Shown here in pieces: positions 1 to 19,538 of a DNA stretch of 63,343 nt. Numbering within the stretch: position 1 is the first letter of the stretch; every line of letters begins with the position of its first letter. The position numbers were made by a program, and so were the translations under genes. This DNA is from a virus (taxonomy: Duplodnaviria > Caudoviricetes), in IMG/VR virus record IMGVR_UViG_3300033153_005229, positions 1 to 63,343 of that record; one strand, 5' to 3'. The notes beneath the pieces are model-generated. The model was not told the origin of the DNA. It saw only the letters and a program-made list of their open reading frames with translations, and did not search any database.

Positions 1-190
1 GTCGTCATCTTCGTCGTCGTCATCTTCGTCGTCGTCATCTTCGTCGTCGTCATCTTCGTCGTCGTCATCTTCGTCGTCGTCATCTTCGTCGTCGTCATCT
101 TCGTCGTCGTCATCCTCATCCTCTTCGATGTCCTCGTCGTCATCCTCATCCTCTTCGATGTCCTCGTCGTCATCTTCGTCGTCATCGTCG
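1..190. repeat. 15-bp tandem repeat (GTCGTCATCTTCGTC)n encoding EDDDD on the - strand, followed by two 30-bp variant units
   Basis: Directly visible; the same unit fills the other end of the window. Confidence 0.95.
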
Positions 191-1358: not shown

Positions 1359-3887
1359 CTATTTCACTTCCTTTAACTCCGACCATATTTTACCTGCCTC
1401 AGCATCGGTAATCATCGGAACCTTCATCTTAAATCCAAAGTATTTCTTCGTTGGTATATTCTCCGCTATCTTCTTCATCATCTTAACAAAGTTCTTAACC
1501 TGACCAGTTGGAACCTCAAATAACATCGAATCATATACGGTATTTATAAAGTGAACATCCTCCGGAATATACCTATGACCTCCAATATAACCACCAGAGA
1601 TTAATAATGACATAAGAGTAAAGTCCGCTGCTGTTCCCTGAATAGGGCTATTAACCGATTGACGTTTTGCTTCTTCCCTGACCCACTTCTTATCGGATTT
1701 TAAGTCTGGGAGGTATCTTCTCCTTCCAAAGAGTGTTTCTGAATATCCTCTTTTTATAGCCTTTCTTTGTAGTTTGTGAATTGACTGTTCTATTTTAGGG
1801 AATAGTTCGAAATATTCATTTTTAAATGTTCCAGCCTCAGCTGGGTCTACGAATATGCCTTTCTTAGGGGATGATAGATTCTTAGCGAGAGTAAGATCAC
1901 CTACACAATATATAATACCGAAGTTAATAGTCTTCGCCCTTTTCCTCTTGGCCTTGGATATATCCTCACTTCGGAACATCTTCTTAGCAACTGCCAAGTG
2001 AACATCCTCACCATCGTTAAACCATCGAATCATCTCTTTGTCATTAGCCATGTGGGCCTTCACCCTTAACTCGGCCTGACTGTAATCAATCTCAACGATC
2101 TTATATCCAGGTGGAGCGATAAACATTGTCTTTATAAATGCCTTAAGAGGAGAATCAAAGTCTTCCTCAGTATCAACATAGACTCGTGGTATATTCATTA
2201 TATTAGGCTCAGTACATGATGGCCTACCTGTCCTTGTACCATGTATCTTAACATTAGGCCTAACTCTACTATCCGGACCGATGTGCTTCCACATACCCTT
2301 AACAAATGTGGAGTGAAGTGTCCTCACCTTTCCATATTCAATAAGGGTTGTCAATACCTTTGGATTACACTTCTCCTTAAATATGAGATCTACCAAAACT
2401 TCTTCGGCAGTAGAATCCCCTCCAGCCTTTGTCTTTACTAAAGAGGGGAAGTTAAATCCGTGTCGGGAAAATAATAACTTAGATTTCTGAGGGGCTGAAT
2501 TAAAGTTAATCTCAAAGTCCTCACCCTTTTTCTTCCTCATATATTTAAGAAATTTCTTGCACCCCTTAAATTTCATCAAGTCCTTATACATATTCTTAAG
2601 GACCTTCTGGAATTTCTTATCTAATTTTTCAAGTTGCTCGGTGTCGATAAGCATCCCTCTTGATTCCATATTAACAAACAGAGGTACAGCTGGCATTATC
2701 AGAGTATCAAAAACTCTCCTAAGCTTCGGTATCTTATCGAGTTCCTTATCGAATATGGGGTATAAATCAAGTAGAGCTGCACAGTCAGTTGCGTTGTACT
2801 TACCTAATTTATCTAAGGGGATATCAAAAGCATTCCCCTTCTTTATTCCTAACTCATCAACATCCTTCCAATATTGACCATAGTTAGTATACTCCAGAGA
2901 AAGAGAGTCCAGGTCATGTCGACTGTTTATATATAATACATAGTGGGCTAGCATAGTATCAAAGATAGGACCTCTAAGATCTATCTTAGCCCTCCACTTT
3001 AACCAACGCCAGTCAAACTTCATGTTCTGACCGACCTTTAAGATATCCTCGTTCTGGAATATACGAGTTCTCAGTAATTTGTATATTACCTTTATATCAC
3101 TTCTACTGAATGGTGATTCAGAATGGAATATGGGAATGCAAACTCCGGTTCCTTTCTTCCATGAAATACCGATAGTACATATAAGCGCCCCATCACGCCA
3201 TTCCTTAGTCCCATTGGTTTCTAAATCAAATGCTGCGACGCCAGCCTTCTCCACCTTATCACATACCTTACTGACTTCATCAATAGTCCTTATTATCTTC
3301 CAGCGGGCGTCTTCATGGATTGTTCCTCCCCTCACGAATTCAAATCCCTTCTCCAGGTCTCCAGCTAAGTACTCTAGATTACCTGGGTTACGTAAGACGC
3401 CTGCTGGATGAAAAGTTGGCATAACCATGGCCGACCATCCATCACCAGAGTAATCAAATGACCTCCCTCTATATTTTGTTATACCACTTCTCTTTATTAT
3501 GGCTTTCATAGGTACATTACCCATTGGGATAATAAGACTAGGTTTTATTAAATCAAGTTCAGCCTGAAGGTAAGGTAAACAGGTTTTAATCTCATCGTTG
3601 GATGGTGTTCGATTATCAGGAGGTCGACAGTGGACTACATTGGTAATATATATGTCCTCTCTATTAACCCCTAACTCAATTAGTATCTCATCCAACAATT
3701 TACCTGAACGTCCGGCAAATGGTTTACCGATGTCATCCTCCCTGAATCCTGGAGCTTCACCAATAAGGACAACATCGGCTTTAAGGTTACCCCTTCCAAG
3801 TAAACAGACATGTTGAGCTGTATCACCTAGCTTACATGATTCACAACTACTATCTCTGATGTTAGACCATTTTTTTGATAACTTCAT
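1359..3887 (-). CDS. polA: Family A DNA polymerase with N-terminal family-4 uracil-DNA glycosylase domain and 3'-5' exonuclease (SPO1-type architecture)
   Basis: UDG: CESC, GEAPG, PFAGRSG, NVVHCRPPDNRTP, HPA. Exonuclease: FDLET, QNMKFD, YNATD. Polymerase: TGRPS, motif A DYSQAELR, motif B KTINFGIIY, motif C VYDS. Confidence 0.95.
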   Translation of the reverse strand: MKLSKKWSNIRDSSCESCKLGDTAQHVCLLGRGNLKADVVLIGEAPGFREDDIGKPFAGRSGKLLDEILIELGVNREDIYITNVVHCRPPDNRTPSNDEIKTCLPYLQAELDLIKPSLIIPMGNVPMKAIIKRSGITKYRGRSFDYSGDGWSAMVMPTFHPAGVLRNPGNLEYLAGDLEKGFEFVRGGTIHEDARWKIIRTIDEVSKVCDKVEKAGVAAFDLETNGTKEWRDGALICTIGISWKKGTGVCIPIFHSESPFSRSDIKVIYKLLRTRIFQNEDILKVGQNMKFDWRWLKWRAKIDLRGPIFDTMLAHYVLYINSRHDLDSLSLEYTNYGQYWKDVDELGIKKGNAFDIPLDKLGKYNATDCAALLDLYPIFDKELDKIPKLRRVFDTLIMPAVPLFVNMESRGMLIDTEQLEKLDKKFQKVLKNMYKDLMKFKGCKKFLKYMRKKKGEDFEINFNSAPQKSKLLFSRHGFNFPSLVKTKAGGDSTAEEVLVDLIFKEKCNPKVLTTLIEYGKVRTLHSTFVKGMWKHIGPDSRVRPNVKIHGTRTGRPSCTEPNIMNIPRVYVDTEEDFDSPLKAFIKTMFIAPPGYKIVEIDYSQAELRVKAHMANDKEMIRWFNDGEDVHLAVAKKMFRSEDISKAKRKRAKTINFGIIYCVGDLTLAKNLSSPKKGIFVDPAEAGTFKNEYFELFPKIEQSIHKLQRKAIKRGYSETLFGRRRYLPDLKSDKKWVREEAKRQSVNSPIQGTAADFTLMSLLISGGYIGGHRYIPEDVHFINTVYDSMLFEVPTGQVKNFVKMMKKIAENIPTKKYFGFKMKVPMITDAEAGKIWSELKEVK

Positions 3888-4414
3888 TAATAATATTCCT
3901 CAAGACCAGCTTTAAGAGAAGAACCACCCAAAACTACAATACCATTACTAATCATGTAATCAATACCATCAGTCTTTCTATATTTTTCCAGGTATACTAC
4001 CCGAACTATACCCGACATAACAACCACCTTGGCACATGATAGACAAGGTGATAGGGTAGTATATAGTGTTCCACCTTCGATTGATATACCGGCCCTCGCT
4101 GCCCAAGCAATGGCATTAGCCTCAGCATGAAGAGTAGCTACACAACCACCATCATCCCCAGTTATACATCCATCATCAATACAATGTTTACTACCAGGAG
4201 GACTTCCAGTATATCCCATTGAGACCGGACGCTTATCCTTAACTATAATACATCCGGCAAACTGCCTCCGCCGACAGCTACTTCTATATGAAACCAATCT
4301 GGCCATCGCCATAAACATTCTATCACGATGGATTCTCATATCCTTCCCATCCGGACCAAGGTACTTATTGGCATCCGGATGAAATAGTAAATCCTCAACA
4401 ATTCTTTTGGGCAT
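3887..4414 (-). CDS. dCMP deaminase
   Basis: HAEANAI and PCLSC Zn motifs; SMGYTGSPPGSKHC. Confidence 0.93.
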   Translation of the reverse strand: MPKRIVEDLLFHPDANKYLGPDGKDMRIHRDRMFMAMARLVSYRSSCRRRQFAGCIIVKDKRPVSMGYTGSPPGSKHCIDDGCITGDDGGCVATLHAEANAIAWAARAGISIEGGTLYTTLSPCLSCAKVVVMSGIVRVVYLEKYRKTDGIDYMISNGIVVLGGSSLKAGLEEYY

Positions 4415-5145
4415 TACAATGTTCCCATCTGCATAAACTGCTTAATTTTACCCTCATCCTTCTTGTAGTAATGGATAGATGAAGCGTTCATATAAAACCA
4501 TCCCGGAATTATCCTTATTCGTTGAGCCATATAAGTTAACATCCGAAGAGCTAGATAAACATCATTTGAAAAGTGAGTAACAAAATCGGTACTTCTCATA
4601 TTATATATAATGTTCAACCGAGGTTGTTCACCAACATAAGTAACAATGAAGTGATAGAATATTGAACAAGGAACTCTCTTCTCTCCGACATTAACTGGGT
4701 CGATTCTTGGGTTCCAAATTGACATAATAGCCTGTCGAGAGTTGAGATCATTCTCAAGTATAGAGATTATCTGTTCGAGCTGAGGTTGGATTCTTTCATT
4801 GTAAGTATACCCAAACTTACCCGCATGAAGGAACTCCTCCCAAATTTCTTTTCTCAGTAACCAAGCATCACCCGGATTGATTGGCATCGGGTCGATTCTT
4901 TCTTGGAACTCAGCATCAGCCCATTTCTTCACTCGTGGTCCCGTCCCTGGAACCTTAAAGAGGTTACCGGTATCATTCCAGTCGGTTAGGCAAAATGAAT
5001 AGTTGATTAGTTCCTTCGTATCAAACTCAGGATTACCCTTAATCACCTTATCCTGCATTGTCCTTGTTTTACGCTCAACACCTAACTCGAGTAGGTCCCG
5101 AGCAGTCTCGTTAAGCATGTCAATACATCGTTTGTACATACGCAT
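4414..5145 (-). CDS. Thymidylate-synthase-fold protein, dCMP (hydroxy)methylase-like
   Basis: YTYNERI, SRQAIMSIW, catalytic RVPC, MRSTDFVTHFSND, SIHYY. Start moved to ATG 5145, downstream of SD AAGGAG. Confidence 0.85.
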   Translation of the reverse strand: MRMYKRCIDMLNETARDLLELGVERKTRTMQDKVIKGNPEFDTKELINYSFCLTDWNDTGNLFKVPGTGPRVKKWADAEFQERIDPMPINPGDAWLLRKEIWEEFLHAGKFGYTYNERIQPQLEQIISILENDLNSRQAIMSIWNPRIDPVNVGEKRVPCSIFYHFIVTYVGEQPRLNIIYNMRSTDFVTHFSNDVYLALRMLTYMAQRIRIIPGWFYMNASSIHYYKKDEGKIKQFMQMGTL

Positions 5146-5157
5146 AAATAATATTTC

Positions 5158-5180
5158 TCCTTTCACTATTATTAAATGCT
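5158..5180 (-). promoter_or_regulatory. Putative phage promoter/RBS element AGCATTTAATAATAGTGAAAGGA (copy 1)
   Basis: Identical 23-mer at 19354-19376; both copies are intergenic and directly upstream of a - strand gene. Confidence 0.65.
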
Positions 5181-7937: not shown

Positions 7938-8235
7938 CGTATCCGTGGATTTCCCATAAGTCACTGTTAGACTTAAATTTATGATTTTATAAATCCAGCC
8001 AAAATCCCCCAACCACACCAAAAATTACCGAAAAAACACACCAAATAACCTATTGCTAGACATAGACTTACATAAATATACACCGGATATATTCGTATAT
8101 TTCCATAACTCATTGTTAGGCATAAATATGGGCCACACGGCCCAAACGTGTGTTTTCCAAAACATATCCAAATAATATTCTTCAAAATTTCTTGGTTTTG
8201 GGCATGATTGTGGCTTCAAAAAATCTCAAAAAACA

Positions 8236-8277
8236 TGTGGATTTCTCTGGACAAACTCCGATAATAAGCATATATTA
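8236..8277 (+). promoter_or_regulatory. Rightward sigma70-like promoter (TGGACA-17-TATATT) with upstream TGTGGATTT box
   Basis: -35 at 8248-8253, -10 at 8271-8276, 17-bp spacer. Confidence 0.65.
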
Positions 8278-8349
8278 ACTATGAAAGATTTAACTACTGT
8301 TATTTGACAACTAAATAAAACCCTAACCTTAACACAGGAGGACAGAGAA

Positions 8350-8811
8350 ATGTCCAAGAAAGAAATCAACCTCAGCGAGAAGGCCAACTCAAAAAAGGCC
8401 AAGAAGAATCCCAAATCAAAAAAGGCTACTGAAGTGGTCGGAACAAAGGAAGTCGCCAAACACCTCGAGATCAGCCCATTCAGTCTTCGGCAGATTCTCC
8501 GGTCAGAAGGTTTCTTCCCAGATGGAGGATACACCAGGTACGGCTTCAAATCCCTTAAAGACCCAATCGTTAAGAAGCTTGAAGGGATAGTCGAGAAAAG
8601 GAAAACAACCAAGGCCAAATCCAAAAAGAAAATTAGGAAAACAACCAAGGCCAAATCCAAAAAGAAAATTAGGAAAACAACCAAGGCCAAATCCAAAAAG
8701 AAAATTAGGAAAACAACCAAGGCCAAATCCAAAAAGAAAACCAAAAAGGACAGGGCCAAGGATAAGGTAAAATGGGCAGTTAAAACAGCCACCCACCGAC
8801 CGGTTAGGTAA
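8350..8811 (+). CDS. HTH DNA-binding protein with histone H1-like Lys-rich repeat tail
   Basis: VGTKEVAKHLEISPFSLRQILRS HTH; about 4 copies of KTTKAKSKKKIR; SD AGGAGG; own promoter and terminator. Confidence 0.75.
   Translation: MSKKEINLSEKANSKKAKKNPKSKKATEVVGTKEVAKHLEISPFSLRQILRSEGFFPDGGYTRYGFKSLKDPIVKKLEGIVEKRKTTKAKSKKKIRKTTKAKSKKKIRKTTKAKSKKKIRKTTKAKSKKKTKKDRAKDKVKWAVKTATHRPVR
8599..8740 (+). repeat. Perfect 36-bp tandem repeat, about 3.9 copies (coding)
   Basis: AGGAAAACAACCAAGGCCAAATCCAAAAAGAAAATT at 8599, 8635, 8671 and partially at 8707. Confidence 0.95.
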
Positions 8812-10928: not shown

Positions 10929-11470
10929 TTGTTATAATATTTATAGTAAGCTTTAACATCTTTAAAATGAGTTTTTGCTTCTAGTCGTCTCAACTCATCG
11001 GAACGAATAAGAACCATATCGGCTTGGTGAACGATATTAATGTGAATATGGTCAGTTGTCCTCACTCCATCTTCATCATATATCCAATTAAACAGTAGTC
11101 TCTCCATTCCAACTAACCAGAGCCCCCTTTCCATTCCATTATATCTAAAAAATAACAAAGGGACCTTGTTAACTTCTTTTGCATCTGAAGTAACTTGGTC
11201 CCAGAAATCAACAATAAGATTTTTTACATTACCAGTAAGAAAGTCTAAAATTTCAATTTTATTCTTCTTCCTTACTTTCACCTCAACAACATAGGGAAAT
11301 TTCTTAATTTTCTTTTCAGGTGGTACAATGTCACCCTTTATCCGATTATCATCTTTCCACTGAAGGCCACCTGAGGACGGAGTCCGATGAAAATCCCACC
11401 TCGTCCAGTCTTTGAAGAAATTAACAACACCTCGTTCACCTCTATTTCCCTTCTTCTTTGAGTTTACCAT
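10925..11470 (-). CDS. Holliday junction resolvase, PD-(D/E)xK (Hjc-like)
   Basis: MVNSKKKGNRGER...RTPSSGG...GDI...VEVK. Confidence 0.85.
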   Translation of the reverse strand: MVNSKKKGNRGERGVVNFFKDWTRWDFHRTPSSGGLQWKDDNRIKGDIVPPEKKIKKFPYVVEVKVRKKNKIEILDFLTGNVKNLIVDFWDQVTSDAKEVNKVPLLFFRYNGMERGLWLVGMERLLFNWIYDEDGVRTTDHIHINIVHQADMVLIRSDELRRLEAKTHFKDVKAYYKYYNK

Positions 11471-13349
11471 ATTCAACCACCCTTGATAATCCTTTATCAT
11501 TCTCTATTATTATCCTATCGTTGAAGTAATCCTTCAATCCTTGCTGATGGGTTATCAGAAACACGGAATCTTTCTCCTTTGATAATTCTAATACTAACTC
11601 AACCACCCTATCCGCTCCGGATAAGTCAAGTGATTCAAATGCCTCGTCCAATATTAATAAACGAGTCGGCTTGGAGCCCCTAGAGGCCACTAGGTCGCGT
11701 AAAGCAAGGGCAACACATATATCCACTCGTCGCTTTTCCCCACCAGATATAAGGCCATAAGACTGACCCCCTTTTTCTTTCCGACATTTAAGTAATACCT
11801 TCTCTACGGTATCACCTTTCTTTAGTTTAATGTTTATTGTACCACCTGTAAGAATGCTGCTGTAATAATTTGCCTTATCATTTATAAACGGAATTACTGA
11901 ATTAACAACAAGTGATTTTATACCTCGATTTGAGAATCCCTCTTTCCAGAATTCGTAGTATTCTATTTCAAGTTCCACCTCATCCATCTTCTCTTGAATA
12001 CCTGTATGTTCTAATTCCAATAATCTTACCTGAGTATTCATATCATTAAGATGTGATATCTTATATTCATCCCTTTTAGAATAATATCTAACTGATTCAA
12101 ACACCAAATCCAGTTTCTCGTAAAGTGAACATATCTTTATCAACGTCTTTTCGGACCGAGAGAGATTTTTCCGGGCTGAAGATAGGTCATTTAAGAGACT
12201 AATTTTCTTAGCTCGAGTTATATCTAAGGCAGCATCCTTTTCAACTAACCTATTTCTCTTCCTCTCTAATATCTTTATCTTCCTATCCATCTTTTTAAGT
12301 TCTTTGTGGACAGAAGCCATATATCTCTTAGCCGCTTTCTTCGTTATAACCTGACCACAAGTATCACATTCATATCCAACGGATAGTTCGTCATGGTGTT
12401 TTCTTACTCCATACTCCTCAACTAAGTTACTAATCTCTAGACCTAACCTTTCAATATCACCTTTATATTCTGGGATATCACCTATATCATCAAGTTGTTT
12501 TGAGATTCGTTTTATATCCCCATCTGGATTAAAAGGAAGAACCTCCGATTCTAATTTATTTATCTTAATCTGGATATCAGTAATTTGGTCCAAGGTAGTA
12601 TAGACAGAGCCAAGATTATCCTGGGTCCTTATATCCTGAACGCGTAACTCATTCCTTATTGATTTCTTTAAATCAGATTTCTTAGAGTAAAGTAATAACT
12701 CCCTATCTCGTAAATATATTCTCTTCTTTTCAAGTTCTTTTAATATATCAGACACCTTTTTATATCCGGTTGTAAGGTAATCAAAATTAAGGACGCCTTC
12801 GAGGATGTCCTTAATTTCCCTATCAGATGAAGTTGATATTCTCTTTATTGAACCTTGCCCAAATATTATAGAATTTATAAAGGTCTTATAATCAAGGCCA
12901 AGGAGGGACTCAATGAAGCGTCCGGTCTGCTTACAGGAGGACAGAGTCAGATTTCTCCACTTCGTCCCTCCATTACCGGCCTCGCTCTGAAGCTGGGAGG
13001 AATCAGAGTATTTCTTTATAAAAACCTTATTCTTATATTTTTTATGCTTCCTATATCTCTTTATCCGATATCTCTCGTTATTGATGGTTACATCTACATA
13101 TCCATAGCAATTCTTACCAATTGACTCATTTATAATATCATCCTTAGAGTTAGACTCCTTAAGAGTTTTACCAAATAGAATCCAGGGGAGGGCCTCGGAG
13201 AAAAGGTTAGACTTACCAGCCCCATTACTATCAAATGAAGTTGAATCACTTACTATACCCTCAACCAAGGTACAACCTGGAATGCTCAAATCAATCTCCG
13301 CTTTTCGGAAGGACATAAAGTTCTGTATTTTCAACTTTCCAAATTTCAC
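11442..13349 (-). CDS. sbcC: SbcC/Rad50/gp46-like recombination ATPase
   Basis: Walker A SNGAGKS, Zn-hook CDTCG, signature SGGEKRR, Walker B ILDEAFESLD, ITH. Confidence 0.93.
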   Translation of the reverse strand: MKFGKLKIQNFMSFRKAEIDLSIPGCTLVEGIVSDSTSFDSNGAGKSNLFSEALPWILFGKTLKESNSKDDIINESIGKNCYGYVDVTINNERYRIKRYRKHKKYKNKVFIKKYSDSSQLQSEAGNGGTKWRNLTLSSCKQTGRFIESLLGLDYKTFINSIIFGQGSIKRISTSSDREIKDILEGVLNFDYLTTGYKKVSDILKELEKKRIYLRDRELLLYSKKSDLKKSIRNELRVQDIRTQDNLGSVYTTLDQITDIQIKINKLESEVLPFNPDGDIKRISKQLDDIGDIPEYKGDIERLGLEISNLVEEYGVRKHHDELSVGYECDTCGQVITKKAAKRYMASVHKELKKMDRKIKILERKRNRLVEKDAALDITRAKKISLLNDLSSARKNLSRSEKTLIKICSLYEKLDLVFESVRYYSKRDEYKISHLNDMNTQVRLLELEHTGIQEKMDEVELEIEYYEFWKEGFSNRGIKSLVVNSVIPFINDKANYYSSILTGGTINIKLKKGDTVEKVLLKCRKEKGGQSYGLISGGEKRRVDICVALALRDLVASRGSKPTRLLILDEAFESLDLSGADRVVELVLELSKEKDSVFLITHQQGLKDYFNDRIIIENDKGLSRVVEYGKLKEEGK

Positions 13350-14359
13350 CTTATCAAATCCAATCCAGTATCTATAAGCTTGGATAAATCAAAACCTATA
13401 CTAGCCTTGGCATACTTAACAATTACCTCTTCCTTCGATAGGCCAACTTCCATTTTTTTATAATCTATCTTTTCTTCACCTTTCCCCTCTACTACAAACT
13501 CCACCCGGTCTCCATAGTTACCATCAGGTATATCATTTACTGTTACACGGAAATAGTTATATTCATCTCCAATTCTTTTGTATTCTTCAAAGCTATCACA
13601 TATAATAAACTCAGGATACTTACCTTTCAGAGAATGGAATTTCGCCTTATCATTTATAGAATTATATGTATATACTCCACAGTGATTACCTCGTTCACCA
13701 AAATGAAGTTGTAGAGGTGGACCTGGAATATACAATCTATTCAGTTTTTGGTGCTTGTGGATATGACCACACCATACCTTATCAAACATATTCCCATACC
13801 TATGATTATCAAAGTCTATACCCTCTTCAAATATATATCCCATTGGGCTACTAGAGCCAAATGGTGTTGAATGGGTGAATAACATAATCTGTTGGCTCGG
13901 TAATATCTTCTTCAGTCCGAAATCTTCAAGTGATTTTATCTGATTGTCTGGAGTATCCCAGGGAAGGAAGAATAAGGTCATATCTTCAATATGGACCCTA
14001 TTGGGATTTACAAACACTTCAAATCCAAAATCACCAAGGAAATCAAGTGAACAAACATTACCCCCATCATCATAGTAGTCATGATTACCAGCTACTGCAA
14101 ATTTATACTCTACACTTTCGAGATACTCGCTGCATGATATCAGACATTCCCTTGAAGTATTAAAAGTATCAACGTCAATTAAACGACGGCTATGGAACCA
14201 ATCACCACCAAATATAATACAACCACATTCCTCTTTTTCGAATATATCCATTATATCCATAAATATCTTGCACGTATCTTCCAATCTTCTTCTTCCATCA
14301 GCACCCGAAAATGGTTTGTGCTTGTGGAAGTGTATATCTGTAAAATATCCTATTTTCAT
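13346..14359 (-). CDS. sbcD: SbcD/Mre11/gp47-like metallophosphoesterase nuclease
   Basis: TDIH, GGDWFH, GNHD, GHIH; start moved to MKIGYF at 14359. Confidence 0.92.
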   Translation of the reverse strand: MKIGYFTDIHFHKHKPFSGADGRRRLEDTCKIFMDIMDIFEKEECGCIIFGGDWFHSRRLIDVDTFNTSRECLISCSEYLESVEYKFAVAGNHDYYDDGGNVCSLDFLGDFGFEVFVNPNRVHIEDMTLFFLPWDTPDNQIKSLEDFGLKKILPSQQIMLFTHSTPFGSSSPMGYIFEEGIDFDNHRYGNMFDKVWCGHIHKHQKLNRLYIPGPPLQLHFGERGNHCGVYTYNSINDKAKFHSLKGKYPEFIICDSFEEYKRIGDEYNYFRVTVNDIPDGNYGDRVEFVVEGKGEEKIDYKKMEVGLSKEEVIVKYAKASIGFDLSKLIDTGLDLIR

Positions 14360-14381
14360 ATCGTATATATAAAATGCTACC

Positions 14382-15152
14382 TTAAAAAATATTAAGGGTA
14401 TCAACCGGAATGGATTTCATCTTATTTACCCCAGTTACAATTCTCTTTATCCTTTCGGCTTGGGCAAACTTCCTTGGTACATCATCAATATACCGAGAAA
14501 GATTCCTCTCAACATCACCTAAATATCCAATCTTTTCTTTACCTGTTACCGACAGACCTATCTCCTCGAAATCAAATACCTTAATCAAAGCCGGAGCCAT
14601 CACAGCACTCTGATATAGTACATTTGATATCAACTCAATATGGACTAACCTAGTTCGAAATTCACTATGTCCCTTAAATATAAAATCTATAATCTTAGTA
14701 AATAGAATATAATCAACAGCCATCCGTCGACTCACTTCGGCTACTCTTGTATAGAATGTAAAACTCCATGGATGTTTTTTAAAGGCACGAATAACAAACC
14801 CGAGTAAACAAGAACCTGTGGATAAGAAAGAGGGAGTAAATGTATAGGGAAGAACTATTGCATCCATTCCTTTATCAACTCTCTTCCAGAGTGTATCTCT
14901 AAGCCAGATAAGTTGTTCCTTATTGATATATTTTTTTATCAGGTCTGTCCACTTCTTATTAGTATACCCAAGCTGGCTCCCTATATCAATACTAACTTCA
15001 GGCTTAAATATGGTTATAGAATTATCAAAAGAAAAAGCTCTAGAACCAGATTTACTTTCAACAATGTCACTATGTGAGTCTGGGTTAAGGAACAATAGAT
15101 TTATACCTTTCCAGGCTTCATCAAAGTTATTCCATACTATATTGTTTAACAT
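14382..15152 (-). CDS. Divergent second thymidylate-synthase-fold protein
   Basis: FDEAWKGIN...LGYTNKKWTDLIKKYI...GSCLL...FYTRVAEVSRRMAVDY; the Cys and R-x2-E-x7-D spacing parallels the TS active-site motifs. Confidence 0.55.
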   Translation of the reverse strand: MLNNIVWNNFDEAWKGINLLFLNPDSHSDIVESKSGSRAFSFDNSITIFKPEVSIDIGSQLGYTNKKWTDLIKKYINKEQLIWLRDTLWKRVDKGMDAIVLPYTFTPSFLSTGSCLLGFVIRAFKKHPWSFTFYTRVAEVSRRMAVDYILFTKIIDFIFKGHSEFRTRLVHIELISNVLYQSAVMAPALIKVFDFEEIGLSVTGKEKIGYLGDVERNLSRYIDDVPRKFAQAERIKRIVTGVNKMKSIPVDTLNIF

Positions 15153-15165
15153 ATTTTCCCCAGAA

Positions 15166-15870
15166 TTAGTATTTTGTGTCTTGGCGGAACTCATTTACTT
15201 TACTCTTCTTAAAATAGATGTCATATATCTTATCTCCCATAAAGTTCATGGAAGCACACAGTATAAAGAAGTAATAGTAAACTAACTGAAGAATGTGGCA
15301 GAACTTAACCTCGTCGGTTTCCACTTCGGATTGTTTCCATCTTTTATTTTTAAGAGTGTTACCAAGAAGGCCAAGCTGGTAGATTATCGGAAATGATAAA
15401 TCAGCAAAGAAGGAGTAAGGCGTATCACCTATATGGGTATTTCTCTTCTCCACTCTATACAGATGAGCAAGAATAATGTCGAGTGGGTCTCCATCTTTAC
15501 CTGAAACATATTCTTTCTCTATTAATCTTAAATCTTTCATCATACTGTATATAATCTCTTCATCATATCCGGCCAGTATCGTAAGCTCCAAAAGAAAGTG
15601 GAAAGCATCCGATATCTCCTCTTCAAAAAGAATCTTATCAGAGTCATTTCCCTTTATAAGGTATTCGGCTGCTTCCATCAACTCCTCCACAATCCTCCAA
15701 CAGAAGTCCTTCAACCAAGCCTGAGCATCCTTTTCCTGTATTCCCATTGGAATAGAAGGCATCCCTTCGATTTCTTTATATTTGTGAACTAGGTTCTTCT
15801 GTATACCAAACATAGTTTCAAGTTTGTTACTCGTTTTTGGTTTAACTTCAGTTACGTTCCTTGAATCCAT
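15166..15870 (-). CDS. All-alpha (dimeric dUTPase/MazG-like) dNTP pyrophosphatase
   Basis: WRIVEELMEA...EEEISDAFHFLLEL; KNKRWKQ; IYFKKSKVNEFRQDTKY. Confidence 0.82.
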   Translation of the reverse strand: MDSRNVTEVKPKTSNKLETMFGIQKNLVHKYKEIEGMPSIPMGIQEKDAQAWLKDFCWRIVEELMEAAEYLIKGNDSDKILFEEEISDAFHFLLELTILAGYDEEIIYSMMKDLRLIEKEYVSGKDGDPLDIILAHLYRVEKRNTHIGDTPYSFFADLSFPIIYQLGLLGNTLKNKRWKQSEVETDEVKFCHILQLVYYYFFILCASMNFMGDKIYDIYFKKSKVNEFRQDTKY

Positions 15871-16504
15871 GAATTACCTCCTCGTATTCCCAAAATATTA
15901 ATCTTTCATTTTTTATCCCTACGGGCATACTAAATATACTAAACTCAAGTACAAAATTAGACAATGGTACAAACCTAGCCTGGTCTATAACATCAACCAA
16001 GCAAGTATCAATTTTAGTCATCCAATCATAGCGGTCAAACCTAGACCAGAGTTGCACCTCAGGACTTATTCTTGAATATGTTATATCACGTGGACCTTTC
16101 TCACATCTAGTTGAAGCCTCTAAAATGATAGTATCTCCATGAAGTACCATTACTAATCCGTCCCATAACTTACTATCACCACTTAAGGGCAACCCAGGCG
16201 AGACCATAAGCGGAAGATTTTCCATCAGATATTCCTCATTCTCCAATATCCATTTCCCATTACGATTTGGTTCAAAGAATTCACCTTTTATGGTCTCGCC
16301 TGGAATACACCTAAAAGAAAGTTGACAAGTGTCCCATAACTCAAACAAAATGTCAAGTAGCATCACCAACCCTAACCGTGTTGTCTTCTCCAGCTTTACA
16401 TAAGATGGGGCATTAATGCCCCATCTTATTAAATCACGGCAACGGTCAAACTTATCCTTTCCAAATTGCTTTCCCACTGTCAGTAACCTTAACCTTTCCA
16501 TCAT
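15848..16504 (-). CDS. Hypothetical protein in the nucleotide-metabolism cluster
   Basis: Long ORF overlapping its neighbours; C-terminal VLEFS...VG...IFWEY; start uncertain. Confidence 0.55.
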   Translation of the reverse strand: MMERLRLLTVGKQFGKDKFDRCRDLIRWGINAPSYVKLEKTTRLGLVMLLDILFELWDTCQLSFRCIPGETIKGEFFEPNRNGKWILENEEYLMENLPLMVSPGLPLSGDSKLWDGLVMVLHGDTIILEASTRCEKGPRDITYSRISPEVQLWSRFDRYDWMTKIDTCLVDVIDQARFVPLSNFVLEFSIFSMPVGIKNERLIFWEYEEVIHGFKERN

Positions 16505-16883
16505 CCGCCGCCTGTTTAAGTGTGTTGTTTACACGCATCCGGGAAGACTTTCCTTCCTCATAATCAAATTTGGAGTCAGTCTTCTCAATGATGGTATCAA
16601 CCTTTACACCCTTGGCACCAGCGTCCTTTACAAGTTTCAAAATATAACCTTTACGAGTGAGAACAGCCTTCTTGACCTCTTTCTCCTTCGTTTTCTCCTT
16701 ACCGGTAGTTTTCTTCTTACCGGTGGCCTTCTTGACAGATTTTTTGCCATTAACCTTCTTCTTCTTCTTCAATCCCATGTTATCTCCTTTCGATAGGGAT
16801 TCGAGTTTCTTGCAGTTAGACTTGTCACAGCAAATTCTACAATATTTAGAATCATTGTCATAATTACCATAACAGTCTTCCAC
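16452..16883 (-). CDS. Lys-rich winged-helix DNA-binding protein (second in-frame start at 16778)
   Basis: Cys-rich leader, poly-Lys segment, then YILKLVKDAGAKGVKVDTII...RVNNTLKQAADDGKV wHTH-like domain; SDs before both GTG 16883 and ATG 16778. Confidence 0.55.
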   Translation of the reverse strand: MEDCYGNYDNDSKYCRICCDKSNCKKLESLSKGDNMGLKKKKKVNGKKSVKKATGKKKTTGKEKTKEKEVKKAVLTRKGYILKLVKDAGAKGVKVDTIIEKTDSKFDYEEGKSSRMRVNNTLKQAADDGKVKVTDSGKAIWKG

Positions 16884-16922
16884 GTTATTACCTCCAAATA
16901 GATTAAATGCTATTACTATATA

Positions 16923-18503
16923 CTACCATGAAACTATTTTTGGTTTGAATCCATCCCTAACATATATCTTCTTCCTGTAATCAGAATGGCGCTTTAATAA
17001 CCTATAACTAGTATCATAAAAATCATATACATCTACAGTGTTCTTATTTTCTGACCTCCGAAGGCCACGACCGAAGGTCTGAAGGATAGTATTCGGAGAT
17101 GACTCACCACAGGCTAAAACTAGAATATCAATACAGGGTATATCAATCCCCTCCTTATATATCATAGTCGCAATCAATTCTTTTATTTCACCAGATATAA
17201 ACTTGGACTTTACCTCATCCCTCCTTTCAGGTGTATCATCCCCATTTATATAAGTAGCCTCTGGACGTCTACTCTTTATGAATTCTCCATGTTCTTTCTT
17301 TATAACAATTGTAAGGATTGACTTACCTTTGTTTTTCTCATAAATATCTAAAAGGGGTTTTAACCTGTGGGAAGATGTCGAAACCCCTTTACTATAAACT
17401 AAACTATACAGCTTAGTCCTAGCATTCCTTACTAACCTTTCACAGTTCTCAGCCTTCAATATATTATTATCCTGTTCAGCCTCAGCCTTCTCTTGCAACA
17501 ACCATCTTATAGTATCAGATAATTTACTAACTTCTCTATCCTTATTTAATTTTGAACACTTGTACTTATACATTATTATATTGGGACTAGCTGAGTATTG
17601 GTTATCAACTAAAAACTTATTTGTAATCTTCTTATATAGAATCGGACCAGATAAACCTACTAAAGAAACATTCCTTATACTACCTGATTGAAAGGCTGTT
17701 CCTGACATTGCAAAAACTGAGTAAGGATTTGCTTTTTGTAATACCCAGCTCCATGAGGGAGCTGGCAAGTGATGGGCCTCATCAACAATGATACAATCAA
17801 ATGATTTTAATATATCACTAGTCTCTTTACTATCCTTACGAGCGTAAAAGGTTGTTATCATCCCAACAGTCACAGGAGTTATATTATCATTCTTCACGTT
17901 ATATATACCAATAGGAGTATTCAAATATTTGCCATACCAATTTACAACTTGACTAAGGATTTCATGACGATGGCATAGATACAACACAGACATTCTATCT
18001 TCTAGACCTCTACAAATAGCGGCACTTATTAAGCTCTTACCAGCGTTTGTCGCTGCATATACTATCCCCCTAAGGAATGGAATATCCTCTTTTACAAACT
18101 TACGAGTGACAGCATTAAAAGCAATCTCATACTGATAGTCCCTTAATTCCTTATCACCAATTACTGTTGGAATGTTATTGGCAAGACTCTCGGCCCAGTT
18201 ATCCTGAGTAAATATCTTCGGCACTCCCTTCCTCTCGTCTACCAATTCTGGTAATCCATAACTATTCTTTATAAAGTTATAAATTCGTGGAAGTAGACCA
18301 ATGGGAAAAGTATTTCCACTACTAAGGAAACAAACTTTACCATCCCACAACCCTTTCTTATATTTATAAGTATGAACTGACTCCGGGTCGAATAGGGACA
18401 TATATTCATGGAGTACCCTAATAACATCCTCCCTCGCTTCTATCTTCGCCCTATCTTTTCTTACGATTCTTATTCTTACGGGAGAGCTTCTTTCGGACTT
18501 CAT
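16923..18503 (-). CDS. SF2 DExH helicase (UvsW-like)
   Basis: LRDYQ, ATNAGKS, DEAHH, MSGT, EGIDIP, QTFGRGLR; start at ATG 18503 after GGAG. Confidence 0.92.
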   Translation of the reverse strand: MKSERSSPVRIRIVRKDRAKIEAREDVIRVLHEYMSLFDPESVHTYKYKKGLWDGKVCFLSSGNTFPIGLLPRIYNFIKNSYGLPELVDERKGVPKIFTQDNWAESLANNIPTVIGDKELRDYQYEIAFNAVTRKFVKEDIPFLRGIVYAATNAGKSLISAAICRGLEDRMSVLYLCHRHEILSQVVNWYGKYLNTPIGIYNVKNDNITPVTVGMITTFYARKDSKETSDILKSFDCIIVDEAHHLPAPSWSWVLQKANPYSVFAMSGTAFQSGSIRNVSLVGLSGPILYKKITNKFLVDNQYSASPNIIMYKYKCSKLNKDREVSKLSDTIRWLLQEKAEAEQDNNILKAENCERLVRNARTKLYSLVYSKGVSTSSHRLKPLLDIYEKNKGKSILTIVIKKEHGEFIKSRRPEATYINGDDTPERRDEVKSKFISGEIKELIATMIYKEGIDIPCIDILVLACGESSPNTILQTFGRGLRRSENKNTVDVYDFYDTSYRLLKRHSDYRKKIYVRDGFKPKIVSW

Positions 18504-19347
18504 CCCAATACTCCTTATCTGAGTCTGAATCCAATTCATCTGGCTCCATCTTAACCATTCCCTGCTGAAGTCGGTCAATTGCTTTATCAGTAACTAGATT
18601 ACTTATCCTTGGAAATGTATCAAACGCCTTAAAAGCTTCAAACTGTATATCAAAAAATTGTTTTATACTAACATGATTATCCCTCATTATCTTATCAATC
18701 TCCTCAACAAAAACATGTTGAGGTGAACCTGGAAGAAGCTTTGTACTGTAGGGTCGTTTAGTTATTTTAATTCTCCTCCGAGTGTAAGCCTTAAATATTT
18801 TCTTCTGTCGAGGTGTTACCGTTGATGTACTTTGTCTTATTAAAGAATCCATCAACTCATCTATATTATATAATATAGAATTTAGAAAAGCCGATTTCTT
18901 ACCCATCTTCCTTGCGAGTCCTTCTGATTCATTAAATAATTTCACCGCAAGAGTTGCTATATCTGAATTCATCTCAGTCGCATATCTTTCCAAGATTCTC
19001 TTTATCTGAACCAAAGTAACCCATTGACGGTTATCATTCATTATTCTATTATGACCAAAACGATTCTTTCCACGCTGATGATTAAACCATATTAATGAAA
19101 GTTGCCTGGTCATATCTGGTGTATCATCATAATGCCTACTGTTTGGATTTAAAATAGATTTAAGACTTGGTTGTCGAACGCGACTGCGTTCGGATGAACT
19201 GCCGGAGGCAGTAAATCTCCTTGATGGTATTCCAGCTTTGGCTATCCTAATAAATGCCCTTACGGCTATTTTTGAATCAACTCCTAGTTCAACAATTTGT
19301 TTTCTAAAATTATTTAGGTCAATTTTTATTGTTGGATTCTTTTTCAT
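18451..19347 (-). CDS. Hypothetical basic protein, possibly replication-associated
   Basis: ATG 19347 downstream of the 23-mer/SD element; divergent from DnaB. Confidence 0.6.
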   Translation of the reverse strand: MKKNPTIKIDLNNFRKQIVELGVDSKIAVRAFIRIAKAGIPSRRFTASGSSSERSRVRQPSLKSILNPNSRHYDDTPDMTRQLSLIWFNHQRGKNRFGHNRIMNDNRQWVTLVQIKRILERYATEMNSDIATLAVKLFNESEGLARKMGKKSAFLNSILYNIDELMDSLIRQSTSTVTPRQKKIFKAYTRRRIKITKRPYSTKLLPGSPQHVFVEEIDKIMRDNHVSIKQFFDIQFEAFKAFDTFPRISNLVTDKAIDRLQQGMVKMEPDELDSDSDKEYWDEVRKKLSRKNKNRKKR

Positions 19348-19353
19348 TTTTGT

Positions 19354-19376
19354 TCCTTTCACTATTATTAAATGCT
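19354..19376 (-). promoter_or_regulatory. Putative phage promoter/RBS element (copy 2)
   Basis: Identical to 5158-5180. Confidence 0.65.
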
Positions 19377-19538
19377 ATTTTGAAAATTACCCAGATAAAA
19401 ATGCGGATGACTTTTAATCCGCTTATAGTATTACAGAGTAATACCGCGCGCGCGTACGAGCGAGAAAAGCTCTACACTATTATAAATATTAGATTGCATT
19501 ATATATTTATACTAACGACGAGTAGGAAAGGAACCCAG
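19377..19538. other. Candidate replication origin / divergent control region
   Basis: Strand switch; GCGGAT-N8-ATCCGC hairpin (19403-19422); (CG)5 run at 19445-19454; AT-rich flank; next to helicase and primase. Confidence 0.4.

What the first reader, a model, noticed from the sequence alone, without database searches (positions are those of the whole stretch)
14382..16504. Second, highly divergent TS-fold paralogue clustered with an all-alpha dNTPase and an unknown protein
Seen: GSCLL followed by RVAEVSRRMAVD has the same R-x2-acid-x7-D register as the first paralogue but lacks the PC and RS signatures; it is co-oriented with a dimeric-dUTPase-like gene and an unknown 218-aa ORF. Established: TS enzymes are obligate dimers, and base-modifying phages use a dNTPase to remove the replaced nucleotide. 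Inference: a heterodimeric or two-step pyrimidine-modifying system spread over two loci; the unknown ORF could supply a missing kinase/ligase step (speculative).
Basis: inference. Interest (0 to 1): 0.78.

Follow-up and report, generated by a model that had tools for sequence, protein, structure and literature searches.

The report
Second thymidylate-synthase-fold enzyme in cytosine cassette
This phage gene encodes a very divergent, uncharacterised relative of thymidylate synthase that travels in many phages with a nucleotide pyrophosphatase and a cytosine-type thymidylate-synthase homologue, so it probably performs an unstudied step in making a modified cytosine for phage DNA.

Summary
The 270-aa ORF at 14382-15194 (minus strand; called X here) has no Pfam match. 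Its AlphaFold2 model (pLDDT 92) is a thymidylate-synthase (TS) fold: Z 15.3 to phage HY126 dCMP hydroxylase AfhB, 14.4 to MilA, 11.5 to TS.

Profile alignment puts Cys129, Arg150, Glu153 and Asp161 on the catalytic Cys, Arg166, Asp169 and Asn177 positions of the first paralogue, TS1 (4414-5166). TS1 carries the same RSxD...ND motif as T4 gp42. Both proteins therefore look cytosine-type.

The neighbouring gene (15166-15870) belongs to Pfam PF08761, as does the T4 dCTPase gp56.

The trio NTPase-X-TS1 is conserved:
- 79 of 80 IMG/VR loci hold all three.
- 13 of 14 TS1 lineages hold X.
- 14 of 15 phage records examined hold X. These include Clostridium, Serratia, Pseudomonas, Yersinia, Brevundimonas, Mycobacterium (Muddy), Gordonia and Streptomyces phages.
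- The usual order is kinase-NTPase-X-TS-(deaminase)-PolA. In this window the cassette is split by 9.2 kb.

The reaction X catalyses is unknown. I found no test of it in print. The heterodimer idea is neither supported nor excluded. The 218-aa ORF occurs only in close relatives, has no recognisable fold, and sits where other cassettes have a kinase.

This scan found the same cassette earlier on other DNA (e1-6083277, e1-6069487, e1-5940398, e1-5323575).

The parts
14382..15194 (-). X: divergent thymidylate-synthase-fold protein (270 aa from the first ATG; probably 256 aa from Met15 at 15152). It carries Cys129, Arg150, Glu153, Arg157 and Asp161.
   Evidence: ORF. No Pfam hit. phrog_34294 'unknown', E 1.3e-10. 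100 homologues at E<=1e-3. AF2 pLDDT 92. TS-superfamily fold matches. Register against TS1. Start codon context.
15166..15870 (-). All-alpha NTP pyrophosphohydrolase of the dimeric-dUTPase/T4 gp56 family. Proposed dCTPase (possibly also dUTPase).
   Evidence: PF08761, 29 bits, cut-off 22.9. phrog_12184 and phrog_173. T4 gp56 hits the same Pfam family, 25.4 bits. BLASTP to gp56 gives E 0.001. 33% identical to the CPAS-15 'dUTPase', E 3.8e-31.
15848..16504 (-). 218-aa protein of unknown fold. It is conserved only in the closest relatives and lies in the position that holds a Tmk-like kinase in other cassettes.
   Evidence: No Pfam, PHROG, NCBIfam or PADLOC hit. Only itself in the word-indexed search. 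Homologues in L007, L008 and L056. AF2 pLDDT 45.
4414..5166 (-). TS1: the first TS paralogue, cytosine-type (RSxD...ND as in T4 gp42). Proposed dCMP C5 methylase or hydroxymethylase.
   Evidence: PF00303, 52.7 bits. Asp202 aligns with the Asn177-equivalent of T4 TS and with the Asp of AfhB. T4 gp42 aligns mRSnDvvfgfrnD to mRssDlvthfvnD.
3887..4414 (-). dCMP-type deaminase. Its start overlaps the TS1 stop.
   Evidence: PF00383, E 1.9e-20. NCBIfam ComEB-like, E 8.7e-35.
1359..3887 (-). Family-A DNA polymerase with an N-terminal UDG domain. This is the downstream end of the cassette as seen in other phages.
   Evidence: PF00476, PF03167 and PF01612.

Best explanation
X is a catalytically competent but very divergent member of the thymidylate-synthase/pyrimidine-hydroxymethylase superfamily. 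It works on a cytosine mononucleotide inside a conserved pre-replicative pathway that replaces dC with a C5-modified dC.

Proposed flow:
- The all-alpha NTPase (same Pfam family as T4 gp56) hydrolyses dCTP, and perhaps dUTP, to the monophosphate. This empties the canonical pool and feeds dCMP to the next steps.
- TS1 (gp42-like RSxD...ND motif) transfers a one-carbon unit to C5 of dCMP.
- X uses Cys129 as the C6 nucleophile. Arg150, Arg157 and Lys81 hold the phosphate, and Asp161 reads the cytosine face. X performs a second covalent step in the same pathway. It may act on the TS1 product, or on dCMP to give a different C5 group.
- The adjacent deaminase converts part of the modified dC nucleotide into the matching T-type nucleotide.
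- A kinase (Tmk-like in other phages; unidentified here) and the UDG-PolA complete incorporation.

Shown: the fold, the residue register, the family membership of the NTPase, and the co-occurrence.

Inferred: the substrate, catalysis by X, the order of steps, and the nature of the modified base.
For: Fold:
- AF2 pLDDT 92.
- Z 15.3 to AfhB, 14.4 to MilA and 11.5 to TS.
- All 7 Foldseek hits at E<=0.001 are TS-superfamily.
- The BFVD top hits are uncharacterised phage proteins (including PMBT14), followed by TS and dCMP hydroxymethylases.

Sequence:
- The family profile hits AfhB chains at E 5.3e-4 and 8.2e-4; the next hit is unrelated at 0.34.

Active site:
- K81, R150 and D161 are invariant. 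C129, E153 and R157 are kept in at least 90% of 81 aligned homologues.
- 127 of 128 X ORFs in 86 loci keep C129, R150 and D161 together.
- The register against TS1 comes, and against AfhB (R..N..D).

Cytosine type:
- The TS1 Asp aligns with the N177 position and with the T4 gp42 ND motif.
- PMC13326640 (sections 24 and 28 read) states that N177D gives dCMP preference.

NTPase:
- PF08761, the same family as T4 gp56.
- Gut-phage relatives carry a separate trimeric dUTPase (PF00692) immediately upstream. The all-alpha enzyme is therefore not their only dUTPase.

Linkage:
- 79 of 80 IMG/VR loci hold all three genes.
- X is present in 13 of 14 TS1 lineages and the NTPase in 14 of 14.
- The order kinase-NTPase-X-TS-(deaminase)-PolA is seen in CPAS-15/E1, Serbin, P744, PMBT14, Lebethron, Polewnik, Muddy, Gibbous, Huwbert, KimJongPhill and NoShow.
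- HMM or hhalign confirms X in each of these.

Context:
- bioRxiv 10.1101/2024.12.05.627091 (passages read) links N177D TS + deaminase + PRA-PH + PolA neighbourhoods to cytosine-modified contigs.
- The PMBT14 NTPase is PRA-PH.
Against: - No chemistry is shown for any member of the family, and no virion DNA of a cassette carrier is reported as modified in the papers I could search.
- The sequence link to TS is weak: PF00303 is not reached by X or by any of 81 homologues, and the hhalign probability is only 25%.
- I found no conserved equivalents of TS Glu58 or of the donated Arg126'/Arg127' pair, so folate chemistry and TS-like dimer sites are uncertain.
- The acid at the D169 position is lost in actinophage homologues.
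- According to the preprint, N177D TS homologues expressed with T4 gp1 alone made 5mdC in 5 of 7 cases. If those were TS1-type enzymes, X is not needed for methylation.
- TS1 and the NTPase occur without X in L080, and TS1 occurs without a detectable X in Axy14.
- Most of the 80 loci fall in two TS1 lineages (36 and 31 of 86), and many share a whole replication module. Part of the co-occurrence is therefore shared descent.
Confidence: 0.55

Rival explanations
1. X is an obligate partner subunit of TS1 (heterodimer or hetero-oligomer of two TS-fold chains). It tunes or enables the TS1 reaction rather than acting alone.
For: - Near-universal co-occurrence.
- X and TS genes overlap by 1-59 nt in 8 of 13 isolate cassettes read from the annotation tables: Serbin, P744, PMBT14, Lebethron, Polewnik, ctfzr933, Gibbous, KimJongPhill and NoShow among them. 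This suggests coupled translation.
- TS enzymes are dimers whose sites use residues of both chains (established knowledge).
- X shows no conserved donated-Arg pair.
Against: - TS1 occurs without X in L080 and Axy14.
- In this window and in L007/L008 the two genes are 5-9 kb apart.
- X is tandemly duplicated (Xa, Xb) in 43 of 86 loci, with both copies keeping the catalytic set. That fits X pairing with X.
- TS1 keeps a complete TS residue set of its own.
Confidence: 0.15
2. X is a flavin-dependent dCMP 5-hydroxylase like AfhB/RB69 gp48. It would make 5-hydroxy-dCMP as an anchor for later glycosylation.
For: AfhB is the best structural match (Z 15.3). It is also the only PDB sequence family reached by the X profile (E 5.3e-4).
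Against: - The D169N signature that PMC13326640 (section 28) reports for all tested 5hodCMP synthases is absent. X has Glu153, and Glu or Asp stands there in 125 of 128 ORFs.
- The reaction needs O2 (same paper, section 24). Carriers include phages of Clostridium perfringens and Desulfofustis and phages from the human gut. That these are anaerobic settings is my own knowledge.
- No glycosyltransferase was found in the annotated parts of the window.
Confidence: 0.08
3. X is a non-catalytic nucleotide-binding protein (a pseudoenzyme, sensor or pool-sequestering factor) derived from a TS fold.
For: - The sequence is extremely diverged: no PF00303 hit.
- It has lost the Pro-Cys and Arg-Ser dipeptides.
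- No Glu58 equivalent was found.
Against: The nucleophile Cys, together with Arg and Asp, is kept at about 20% mean identity across phages of four host phyla. That is the pattern expected of a working active site.
Confidence: 0.1
4. X is simply the phage's own thymidylate synthase (dUMP to dTMP), and TS1 makes the modified cytosine.
For: Many carriers lack a deaminase: 81 of 86 loci. Gut-phage carriers have a trimeric dUTPase just upstream, which would supply dUMP.
Against: - Asp is invariant at the N177 position.
- Phage ctfzr933 carries ThyX (PF02511, 198.5 bits) as well as X and TS1.
- X is also present where a deaminase route to the T-type nucleotide exists (this window, Serbin, PMBT14, NoShow).
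Confidence: 0.07

Closest known systems
Phage T4 cytosine-replacement pathway (gp56 dCTPase/dUTPase, gp42 dCMP hydroxymethylase, gp1 dNMP kinase, cd deaminase)
   Same: - The NTPase is in the same Pfam family as gp56 (PF08761).
- TS1 shares the gp42 RSxD...ND motif.
- A deaminase and a polymerase lie next to TS1.
- Other carriers add a kinase.
   Different: - T4 has one cytosine-type TS-fold enzyme; this cassette has two, or three in gut phages.
- At the L143 position gp42 has Asp, TS1 has an invariant Arg, and X has Thr/Gly/Asn.
- No glucosyltransferase and no P-loop kinase were found in the window.
AfhB / RB69 gp48 / DLP3 gp80 5-hydroxy-dCMP synthases (PDB 9iqu, 9iqc; PMC13326640)
   Same: - Best fold match (Z 15.3 and 14.7).
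- The only PDB family reached by the X profile.
- Compact TS fold, with Asp at the N177 position.
   Different: - X keeps an acid (Glu153) where these enzymes have the diagnostic Asn.
- X lacks Pro-Cys.
- X has a C-terminal two-helix extension (residues 223-254).
- Carriers include phages from anaerobic hosts.
Xp12-type 5-methyl-dCMP pathway with 5mC-selective deaminase (bioRxiv 10.1101/2024.12.05.627091)
   Same: An N177D TS homologue, a dCMP-family deaminase, an all-alpha NTP-PPase and PolA lie in one neighbourhood (passages read). The same architecture is seen in PMBT14, Serbin and this window.
   Different: - That work describes neighbourhoods by Pfam domains, so X (no Pfam) is not mentioned in the passages I read.
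- Neither Xp12 nor PaMx74 appeared among the TS1-type or X-type tblastn hits: all 13 and 18 X-hit records are listed, but only 60 of the 128 and 60 of the 114 TS-hit records, and neither name is in their organism tallies.
MilA CMP hydroxymethylase (PDB 5b6e, 5jnh)
   Same: TS fold with Asp at the N177 position. Z 14.4 to X.
   Different: - MilA acts on a ribonucleotide in antibiotic biosynthesis.
- It has Asp at the L143 position (PMC13326640, section 24).
- It is about 320 aa with extra elements.

Membership tests
Thymidylate synthase / pyrimidine hydroxymethylase superfamily (PF00303; CDD name TS_Pyrimidine_HMase recalled) | TS alpha/beta fold | tested here: met
   AF2 pLDDT 92. Z 15.3, 14.4 and 11.5 to AfhB, MilA and TS, with 172-182 residues aligned. 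395 of 1000 chains score Z>=8; every one of the 50 entries shown is a TS-family enzyme.
Thymidylate synthase / pyrimidine hydroxymethylase superfamily (PF00303) | Match to the Pfam profile above its gathering score | tested here: not met
   X has 0 Pfam families at E<=1. None of 81 homologues hits PF00303 at E<=0.1.
Thymidylate synthase / pyrimidine hydroxymethylase superfamily (PF00303) | Catalytic Cys (E. coli C146), followed about 20 residues later by Arg166, an acid at position 169, and the base-reading residue at 177 | tested here: met
   hhalign pairs C129/C167, R150/R191, E153/D194 and D161/D202 (E 7.6e-4 but probability 25%). The same register is seen against AfhB. Residues are conserved in 81 homologues and in 127 of 128 ORFs.
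Thymidylate synthase / pyrimidine hydroxymethylase superfamily (PF00303) | Folate-step residues (Glu58, Trp80, Tyr94) and the donated Arg126'/Arg127' pair | tested here: inconclusive
   No conserved Arg pair lies before strand 112-118, and no Glu58-bearing helix is recognisable. K81, W82 and Y89 are conserved, but their equivalence was not established because no residue-level structural alignment was available.
dUMP-specific thymidylate synthase (ThyA) | Asn at position 177 | tested here: not met
   Asp161 is invariant.
T4 gp42-type dCMP hydroxymethylase | Asp at position 177, plus Asp or Glu at the L143 position (Cys minus 3), as stated in PMC13326640 section 24 | tested here: not met
   Asp161 is present. 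Cys minus 3 is Thr126 in X, and Gly, Asn, Thr, Ala or Glu across the family. T4 gp42 has Asp there.
5-hydroxy-dCMP synthase (AfhB, RB69 gp48) | Asn at the D169 position (PMC13326640 section 28) | tested here: not met
   Glu153 in X. Glu or Asp stands there in 125 of 128 X ORFs. AfhB shows R-S-Q-N in the alignment.
5-hydroxy-dCMP synthase (AfhB, RB69 gp48) | Bound flavin and O2-dependent hydroxylation | not testable with these tools
   This needs purified protein.
All-alpha NTP pyrophosphohydrolases, dimeric dUTPase / T4 gp56 family (PF08761), for the 234-aa neighbour | Pfam profile above its gathering score | tested here: met
   29 bits against a cut-off of 22.9. T4 gp56 scores 25.4 bits on the same profile.
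All-alpha NTP pyrophosphohydrolases, dimeric dUTPase / T4 gp56 family (PF08761), for the 234-aa neighbour | dCTP versus dUTP specificity | not testable with these tools
   Indirect evidence only: a separate trimeric dUTPase lies beside the homologue in gut phages.
P-loop dNMP/thymidylate kinase, for the 218-aa ORF | Walker A motif and kinase fold | tested here: not met
   No [AG]x4GK[ST] motif. No Pfam, PHROG, NCBIfam or PDB hit. The model is unusable at pLDDT 45, so a non-P-loop kinase fold is not excluded.

The most novel reading that the evidence does not exclude
X catalyses a C5 (or C5/C6) reaction on a cytosine nucleotide that is none of the three known TS-fold outcomes (methyl, hydroxymethyl, hydroxyl). 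One example would be re-activating the TS1 product through a Cys-C6 adduct and exchanging or reducing its C5 substituent. In that case a large, cross-phylum set of phages, including the therapy phage Muddy, would build DNA with a cytosine derivative, or by a biosynthetic route, that has not been described.
Probability: 0.2. Interest if true: 0.88.

Novelty: new variant of a known kind. Interest (0 to 1): 0.68.

Why it matters
TS-fold enzymes are the entry point of every known pre-replicative pyrimidine modification in phages (5mC, 5hmC, 5hmU, 5hoC). A second, unrecognised TS-fold family sits almost invariably beside a cytosine-type TS in phages of Bacillota, Pseudomonadota, Actinomycetota and gut and environmental metagenomes. 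This means a conserved step of phage DNA-base chemistry is still unassigned.

Because X has no Pfam model, domain-based surveys of modification clusters cannot see it. Several carriers are cultured, in easy hosts (Pseudomonas fluorescens PMBT14, Mycobacterium smegmatis Muddy), so the question is directly testable.

The answer bears on restriction evasion, on the sequencing and engineering of therapeutic phages, and possibly on new nucleotide-modifying tools.

Tried and rejected
Direct similarity:
- BLASTP of X against TS1 found nothing (best E 3.8).
- phmmer of X against PDB found nothing relevant.
- blastn of the 2.1-kb region against the phage records found no match.
- The word-indexed protein search found only X itself.
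- NCBIfam and PADLOC gave no hit for X, the NTPase or the 218-aa ORF.

Complex prediction:
- TS1 (alignment A2) with X (alignment A1) returned 'no answer' (score 0.00, mark 0.32, controls not run). It counts neither for nor against binding.

The 218-aa ORF:
- The Atlas features search reached at most 0.81 and the Atlas's own model has pLDDT 0.28.
- AF2 on a 4-sequence alignment gave pLDDT 45, so I ran no fold search on it.
- Its profile found only chance PDB hits (E 0.31 and above) and no Pfam family in 4 of 4 members.

Promoter and terminator scan of 11000-19500:
- 43 promoter-like sites against 32.3 +/- 6.3 expected, and 4 terminator-like sites against 4.2. This is not informative.

Literature:
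- Searches found no paper that tests, or names a function for, the X family or the DNA composition of its cultured carriers.
- PMC11269248 (P744) holds none of my six terms.
- PMC11780129 does not mention Almagne or PMBT14.
- PMC13697223 concerns longer SP15-like UDG-PolA enzymes and did not decide whether this phage is T- or C-modified.
The supplementary neighbourhood figure and the list of tested thyA homologues of bioRxiv 10.1101/2024.12.05.627091, and the supplements of PMC13326640, may show whether X-bearing cassettes were assayed.

Rows dropped:
- Alignment A1 uses 81 of the 100 hits. I left out 19 by eye for odd length or partial match: P0035, 48, 51, 55, 63, 66, 71, 73, 74, 78, 80, 82, 89, 90, 91, 93, 96, 97, 100.
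- A2 uses 30 of the 120 proteins listed (422 in all at E<=1e-5).
- The 80 loci are the best 80 of 468 relatives.
Full report
WHAT IS THERE

The window is a 63,343-bp IMG/VR virus record. On the minus strand, three ORFs overlap head to tail:
- 15848-16504 (218 aa)
- 15166-15870 (234 aa)
- 14382-15194 (270 aa, called X here)

Upstream lie a UvsW-type helicase (16923-18578) and a small basic ORF. Downstream lie SbcD (13346-14404) and SbcC (11442-13349).

The 'first paralogue' is the 250-aa ORF 4414-5166 (TS1). It scores 52.7 bits on PF00303. Its stop overlaps the start of a dCMP-type deaminase (3887-4414), which abuts a UDG-PolA fusion (1359-3887). X and TS1 are 9.2 kb apart.

The rest of the early region is a T4-like replication set: gp32-like, UvsY, RecA/UvsX, FEN, DnaB, primase and RusA.

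IS X A TS-FOLD PROTEIN?

By plain sequence, no:
- X has no Pfam family.
- It has no NCBIfam family.
- BLASTP to TS1 gives E 3.8.

An exhaustive HMMER search of 1.84 billion representatives found 100 homologues at E<=1e-3. An alignment of 81 of them (A1) gave these results:
- Lys81, Arg150 and Asp161 are invariant.
- Asn32, Tyr77, Leu85, Tyr89, Phe119, Cys129, Glu153 and Arg157 are kept in at least 90%.
- None of the 81 reaches PF00303.

The A1 profile reaches only one PDB family by sequence. It hits the phage HY126 enzymes 9iqc and 9iqu at E 5.3e-4 and 8.2e-4. The next hit is unrelated, at 0.34.

AlphaFold2 on A1 gave pLDDT 92.0 and pTM 0.89.
- Foldseek against the PDB returned 7 hits at E<=0.001. 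All are TS-superfamily: T4 dCMP hydroxymethylase, AfhB and MilA.
- VIA-align gave Z 15.3 (rmsd 3.5, 182 residues) to AfhB 9iqu, 14.7 to 9iqc, 14.4 to MilA, and about 11.5 to L. casei TS.
- In BFVD the top three hits are uncharacterised phage proteins, one of them from Pseudomonas phage PMBT14. TS and dCMP-hydroxymethylase entries follow.
- The Atlas agrees.

The fold claim is confirmed.

THE ACTIVE-SITE REGISTER

hhalign of A1 against a 30-sequence alignment of TS1 relatives (A2) aligns 70 columns (E 7.6e-4, probability only 25%). The pairs are Cys129-Cys167, Arg150-Arg191, Glu153-Asp194 and Asp161-Asp202. The HMMER alignment to AfhB gives the same register.

For TS1:
- Its Asp202 aligns with the Asn177-equivalent of T4 thymidylate synthase and with the Asp of AfhB.
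- T4 gp42 aligns its RSNDVVFGFRND to TS1's RS.D.......ND.

PMC13326640 (sections 24 and 28 read) summarises the rules. N177D gives a dCMP preference. A hydrophobic L143 goes with methyl and Asp/Glu with hydroxymethyl. D169N marks the flavin-dependent 5-hydroxy-dCMP synthases.

Against those rules:
- Both X and TS1 are cytosine-type.
- Both keep an acid at position 169, so neither carries the 5hoC signature.
- At the L143 position TS1 has an invariant Arg and X has Thr (Gly or Asn in most relatives).

The product of neither enzyme can be read from these rules.

I could not place equivalents of TS Glu58, or of the Arg126'/Arg127' pair, in X.

THE NEIGHBOURS

The 234-aa protein passes the PF08761 (dUTPase_2) threshold and hits PHROG NTP-pyrophosphohydrolase families. 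T4 gp56, the dCTPase/dUTPase of the hydroxymethylcytosine pathway, passes the same Pfam threshold. It also aligns weakly with the 234-aa protein (E 0.001).

The 218-aa protein has no family hit in any library. Other results for it:
- It finds only itself in the word-indexed search.
- It has homologues only in three related IMG/VR loci, at 25-35% identity and in the same position.
- It could not be modelled (pLDDT 45).

CO-OCCURRENCE

tblastn of X against 50,697 phage records found 13 records: ten Clostridium perfringens phages and three gut-metagenome phages.

In CPAS-15 and E1 the order is P-loop kinase, 'dUTPase', X homologue, 'thymidylate synthase', then PolA a few genes on. Identities to the window's proteins:
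- NTPase: 33% (E 3.8e-31)
- X: 22% (E 9.8e-16)
- TS1: 44% (E 2.8e-67)

The search with the TS1 family in IMG/VR found 468 relatives, of which the best 80 loci were kept.
- 79 of the 80 hold NTPase, X and TS1 within the flanks at E<=1e-5, nearly always in that order.
- Over all 86 loci, 43 hold two tandem X genes (about 330 and 260 aa).
- 127 of 128 X ORFs keep Cys129, Arg150 and Asp161 together.

Clustering TS1 at 70% identity gives 14 lineages, two of which hold 36 and 31 of the 86 loci. X is present in 13 of the 14 and the NTPase in all 14. The exception, L080, has NTPase and TS1 with only a 71-aa ORF between them.

Many lineages also share PolA, UvsW, gp32, UvsY and RecA. Part of this signal is therefore common descent.

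The cassette also occurs in unrelated siphophages:
- Serratia Serbin
- Yersinia P744
- Pseudomonas PMBT14 and Lebethron
- Brevundimonas Polewnik
- a Desulfofustis phage
- metagenomic ctfzr933, which also has ThyX
- Mycobacterium Muddy and NoShow
- Gordonia Gibbous
- Microbacterium Huwbert
- Streptomyces KimJongPhill

In each of these the 'hypothetical protein' between the NTPase and the TS matches the X profile. Proteobacterial and metagenomic members score 56.8-96.9 bits, and actinophage members 19.4-30.7 bits. hhalign of five actinophage members against A1 gives probability 97.6% and E 3e-12.

Achromobacter phage Axy14 has the TS and the deaminase but no detectable X. So 14 of the 15 records examined carry X.

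Two GenBank records already label their X homologue 'pyrimidine hmase synthase'. Automated annotation has therefore seen the fold, but no function is given.

The window itself, with L007 and L008, is the unusual case. Here [218-aa ORF]-NTPase-X is separated from TS1-deaminase-PolA by SbcCD and several other genes.

HOW IT MOST LIKELY WORKS

The architecture parallels T4's: an all-alpha dCTPase-type NTPase, a cytosine-type TS homologue, a kinase, a deaminase and a polymerase.

The 2024 preprint 10.1101/2024.12.05.627091 (passages read) reports two things:
- Neighbourhoods of N177D TS, deaminase, PRA-PH and PolA are enriched in cytosine-modified metagenomic contigs.
- Five of seven such TS homologues made 5mdC in E. 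coli together with T4 gp1.

The PMBT14 NTPase is PRA-PH, so X-bearing cassettes fit that description.

I therefore read the system as a pre-replicative dC-replacement pathway. X keeps a nucleophilic Cys, a phosphate-binding Arg and a cytosine-reading Asp across phages of four host phyla. I read it as a working enzyme on a cytosine mononucleotide in that same pathway. It could act after TS1 on TS1's product, or beside TS1 to give a second C5 group.

In gut phages a trimeric dUTPase lies directly upstream of the all-alpha NTPase. This argues that the all-alpha enzyme is not merely a dUTPase.

These steps are inference. No reaction has been shown.

RIVALS

A TS1-X heteromer is compatible with the frequent 1-4-nt gene overlaps. 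Three things weaken it: TS1 occurs without X, the two genes are split in this window, and X is tandemly duplicated.

An AfhB-like hydroxylase is disfavoured by the missing D169N signature. It is also disfavoured by carriers from anaerobic hosts, since the reaction needs O2 (PMC13326640 section 24; the anaerobiosis of the hosts is my own knowledge).

A pseudoenzyme is disfavoured by the conserved Cys.

A plain thymidylate synthase is disfavoured by the invariant Asp and by the ThyX in ctfzr933.

THE 218-AA ORF

Two facts keep it open:
- The ORF occupies the slot that holds a Tmk-like kinase in at least eleven of the cassettes listed above.
- The window has no small P-loop kinase. The only Walker A matches are the helicase, a chance match in the primase, and the terminase.

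NOVELTY AND EARLIER NOTES

My eight literature searches found no paper that tests the X family.

After my analysis, the scan's own index showed that follow-up agents had described the same paired cytosine-type TS-fold cassette, including Muddy, on four other genomes. My results agree with theirs and were obtained independently on this window.

What this window adds:
- the split arrangement;
- the 218-aa family in the kinase slot;
- the Xa/Xb duplication with both catalytic sets intact;
- the trimeric dUTPase and ThyX co-residents;
- the anaerobe argument against O2-dependent chemistry.

VERDICT

- X is a new, uncharacterised branch of a known superfamily, sitting in a known kind of pathway.
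- Its reaction is open and directly testable in cultured phages.

Noticed in passing
window 1-183 and 63186-63343: Both ends of the record lie in one 15-nt tandem array (unit GTCGTCATCTTCGTC) inside the gp32-like gene (1-813, minus). The record's 'direct terminal repeat' may be this array rather than a genome terminus. CheckV completeness is given as 65.
   Followed up: partly
window 8563-8776: A 36-nt tandem repeat (three exact copies plus two diverged) lies inside the 188-aa ORF 8226-8792 (minus). It encodes a Lys/Thr-rich repeat. The ORF has no family hit.
   Followed up: no
L004, L005, L006, L014 and 39 further loci: Gut-phage relatives carry two tandem X genes (about 330 and 260 aa). Both have the Cys/Arg/acid/Asp set, which makes three TS-fold genes in a row with TS1.
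   Followed up: partly
L014:6568-7239 and the same slot in L005, L012, L073: A trimeric dUTPase (PF00692, 36.3 bits) lies immediately upstream of the all-alpha NTPase in gut-phage cassettes.
   Followed up: partly
L092:1839-2495 (metagenomic phage ctfzr933): One cassette carrier also encodes ThyX (PF02511, 198.5 bits) between the NTPase and X. It therefore has three pyrimidine C5 enzymes.
   Followed up: partly
L008:10759-11763: A third, degenerate X-like ORF (334 aa) lies between TS1 and the deaminase in a close relative. It lacks the Arg150 and Glu153 equivalents and may be a decaying or regulatory copy.
   Followed up: no
window 15848-16504 and the whole window: The window has no small P-loop kinase. 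The 218-aa ORF family (window, L007, L008, L056) sits where other cassettes have a Tmk-like kinase.
   Followed up: partly
window 15152: The second ATG of X (Met15) has GGGGA upstream and lies 14 nt after the NTPase stop. Family alignments start near residues 15-21, and residues 1-10 model at pLDDT under 50. The annotated start at 15194 is probably too early.
   Followed up: yes
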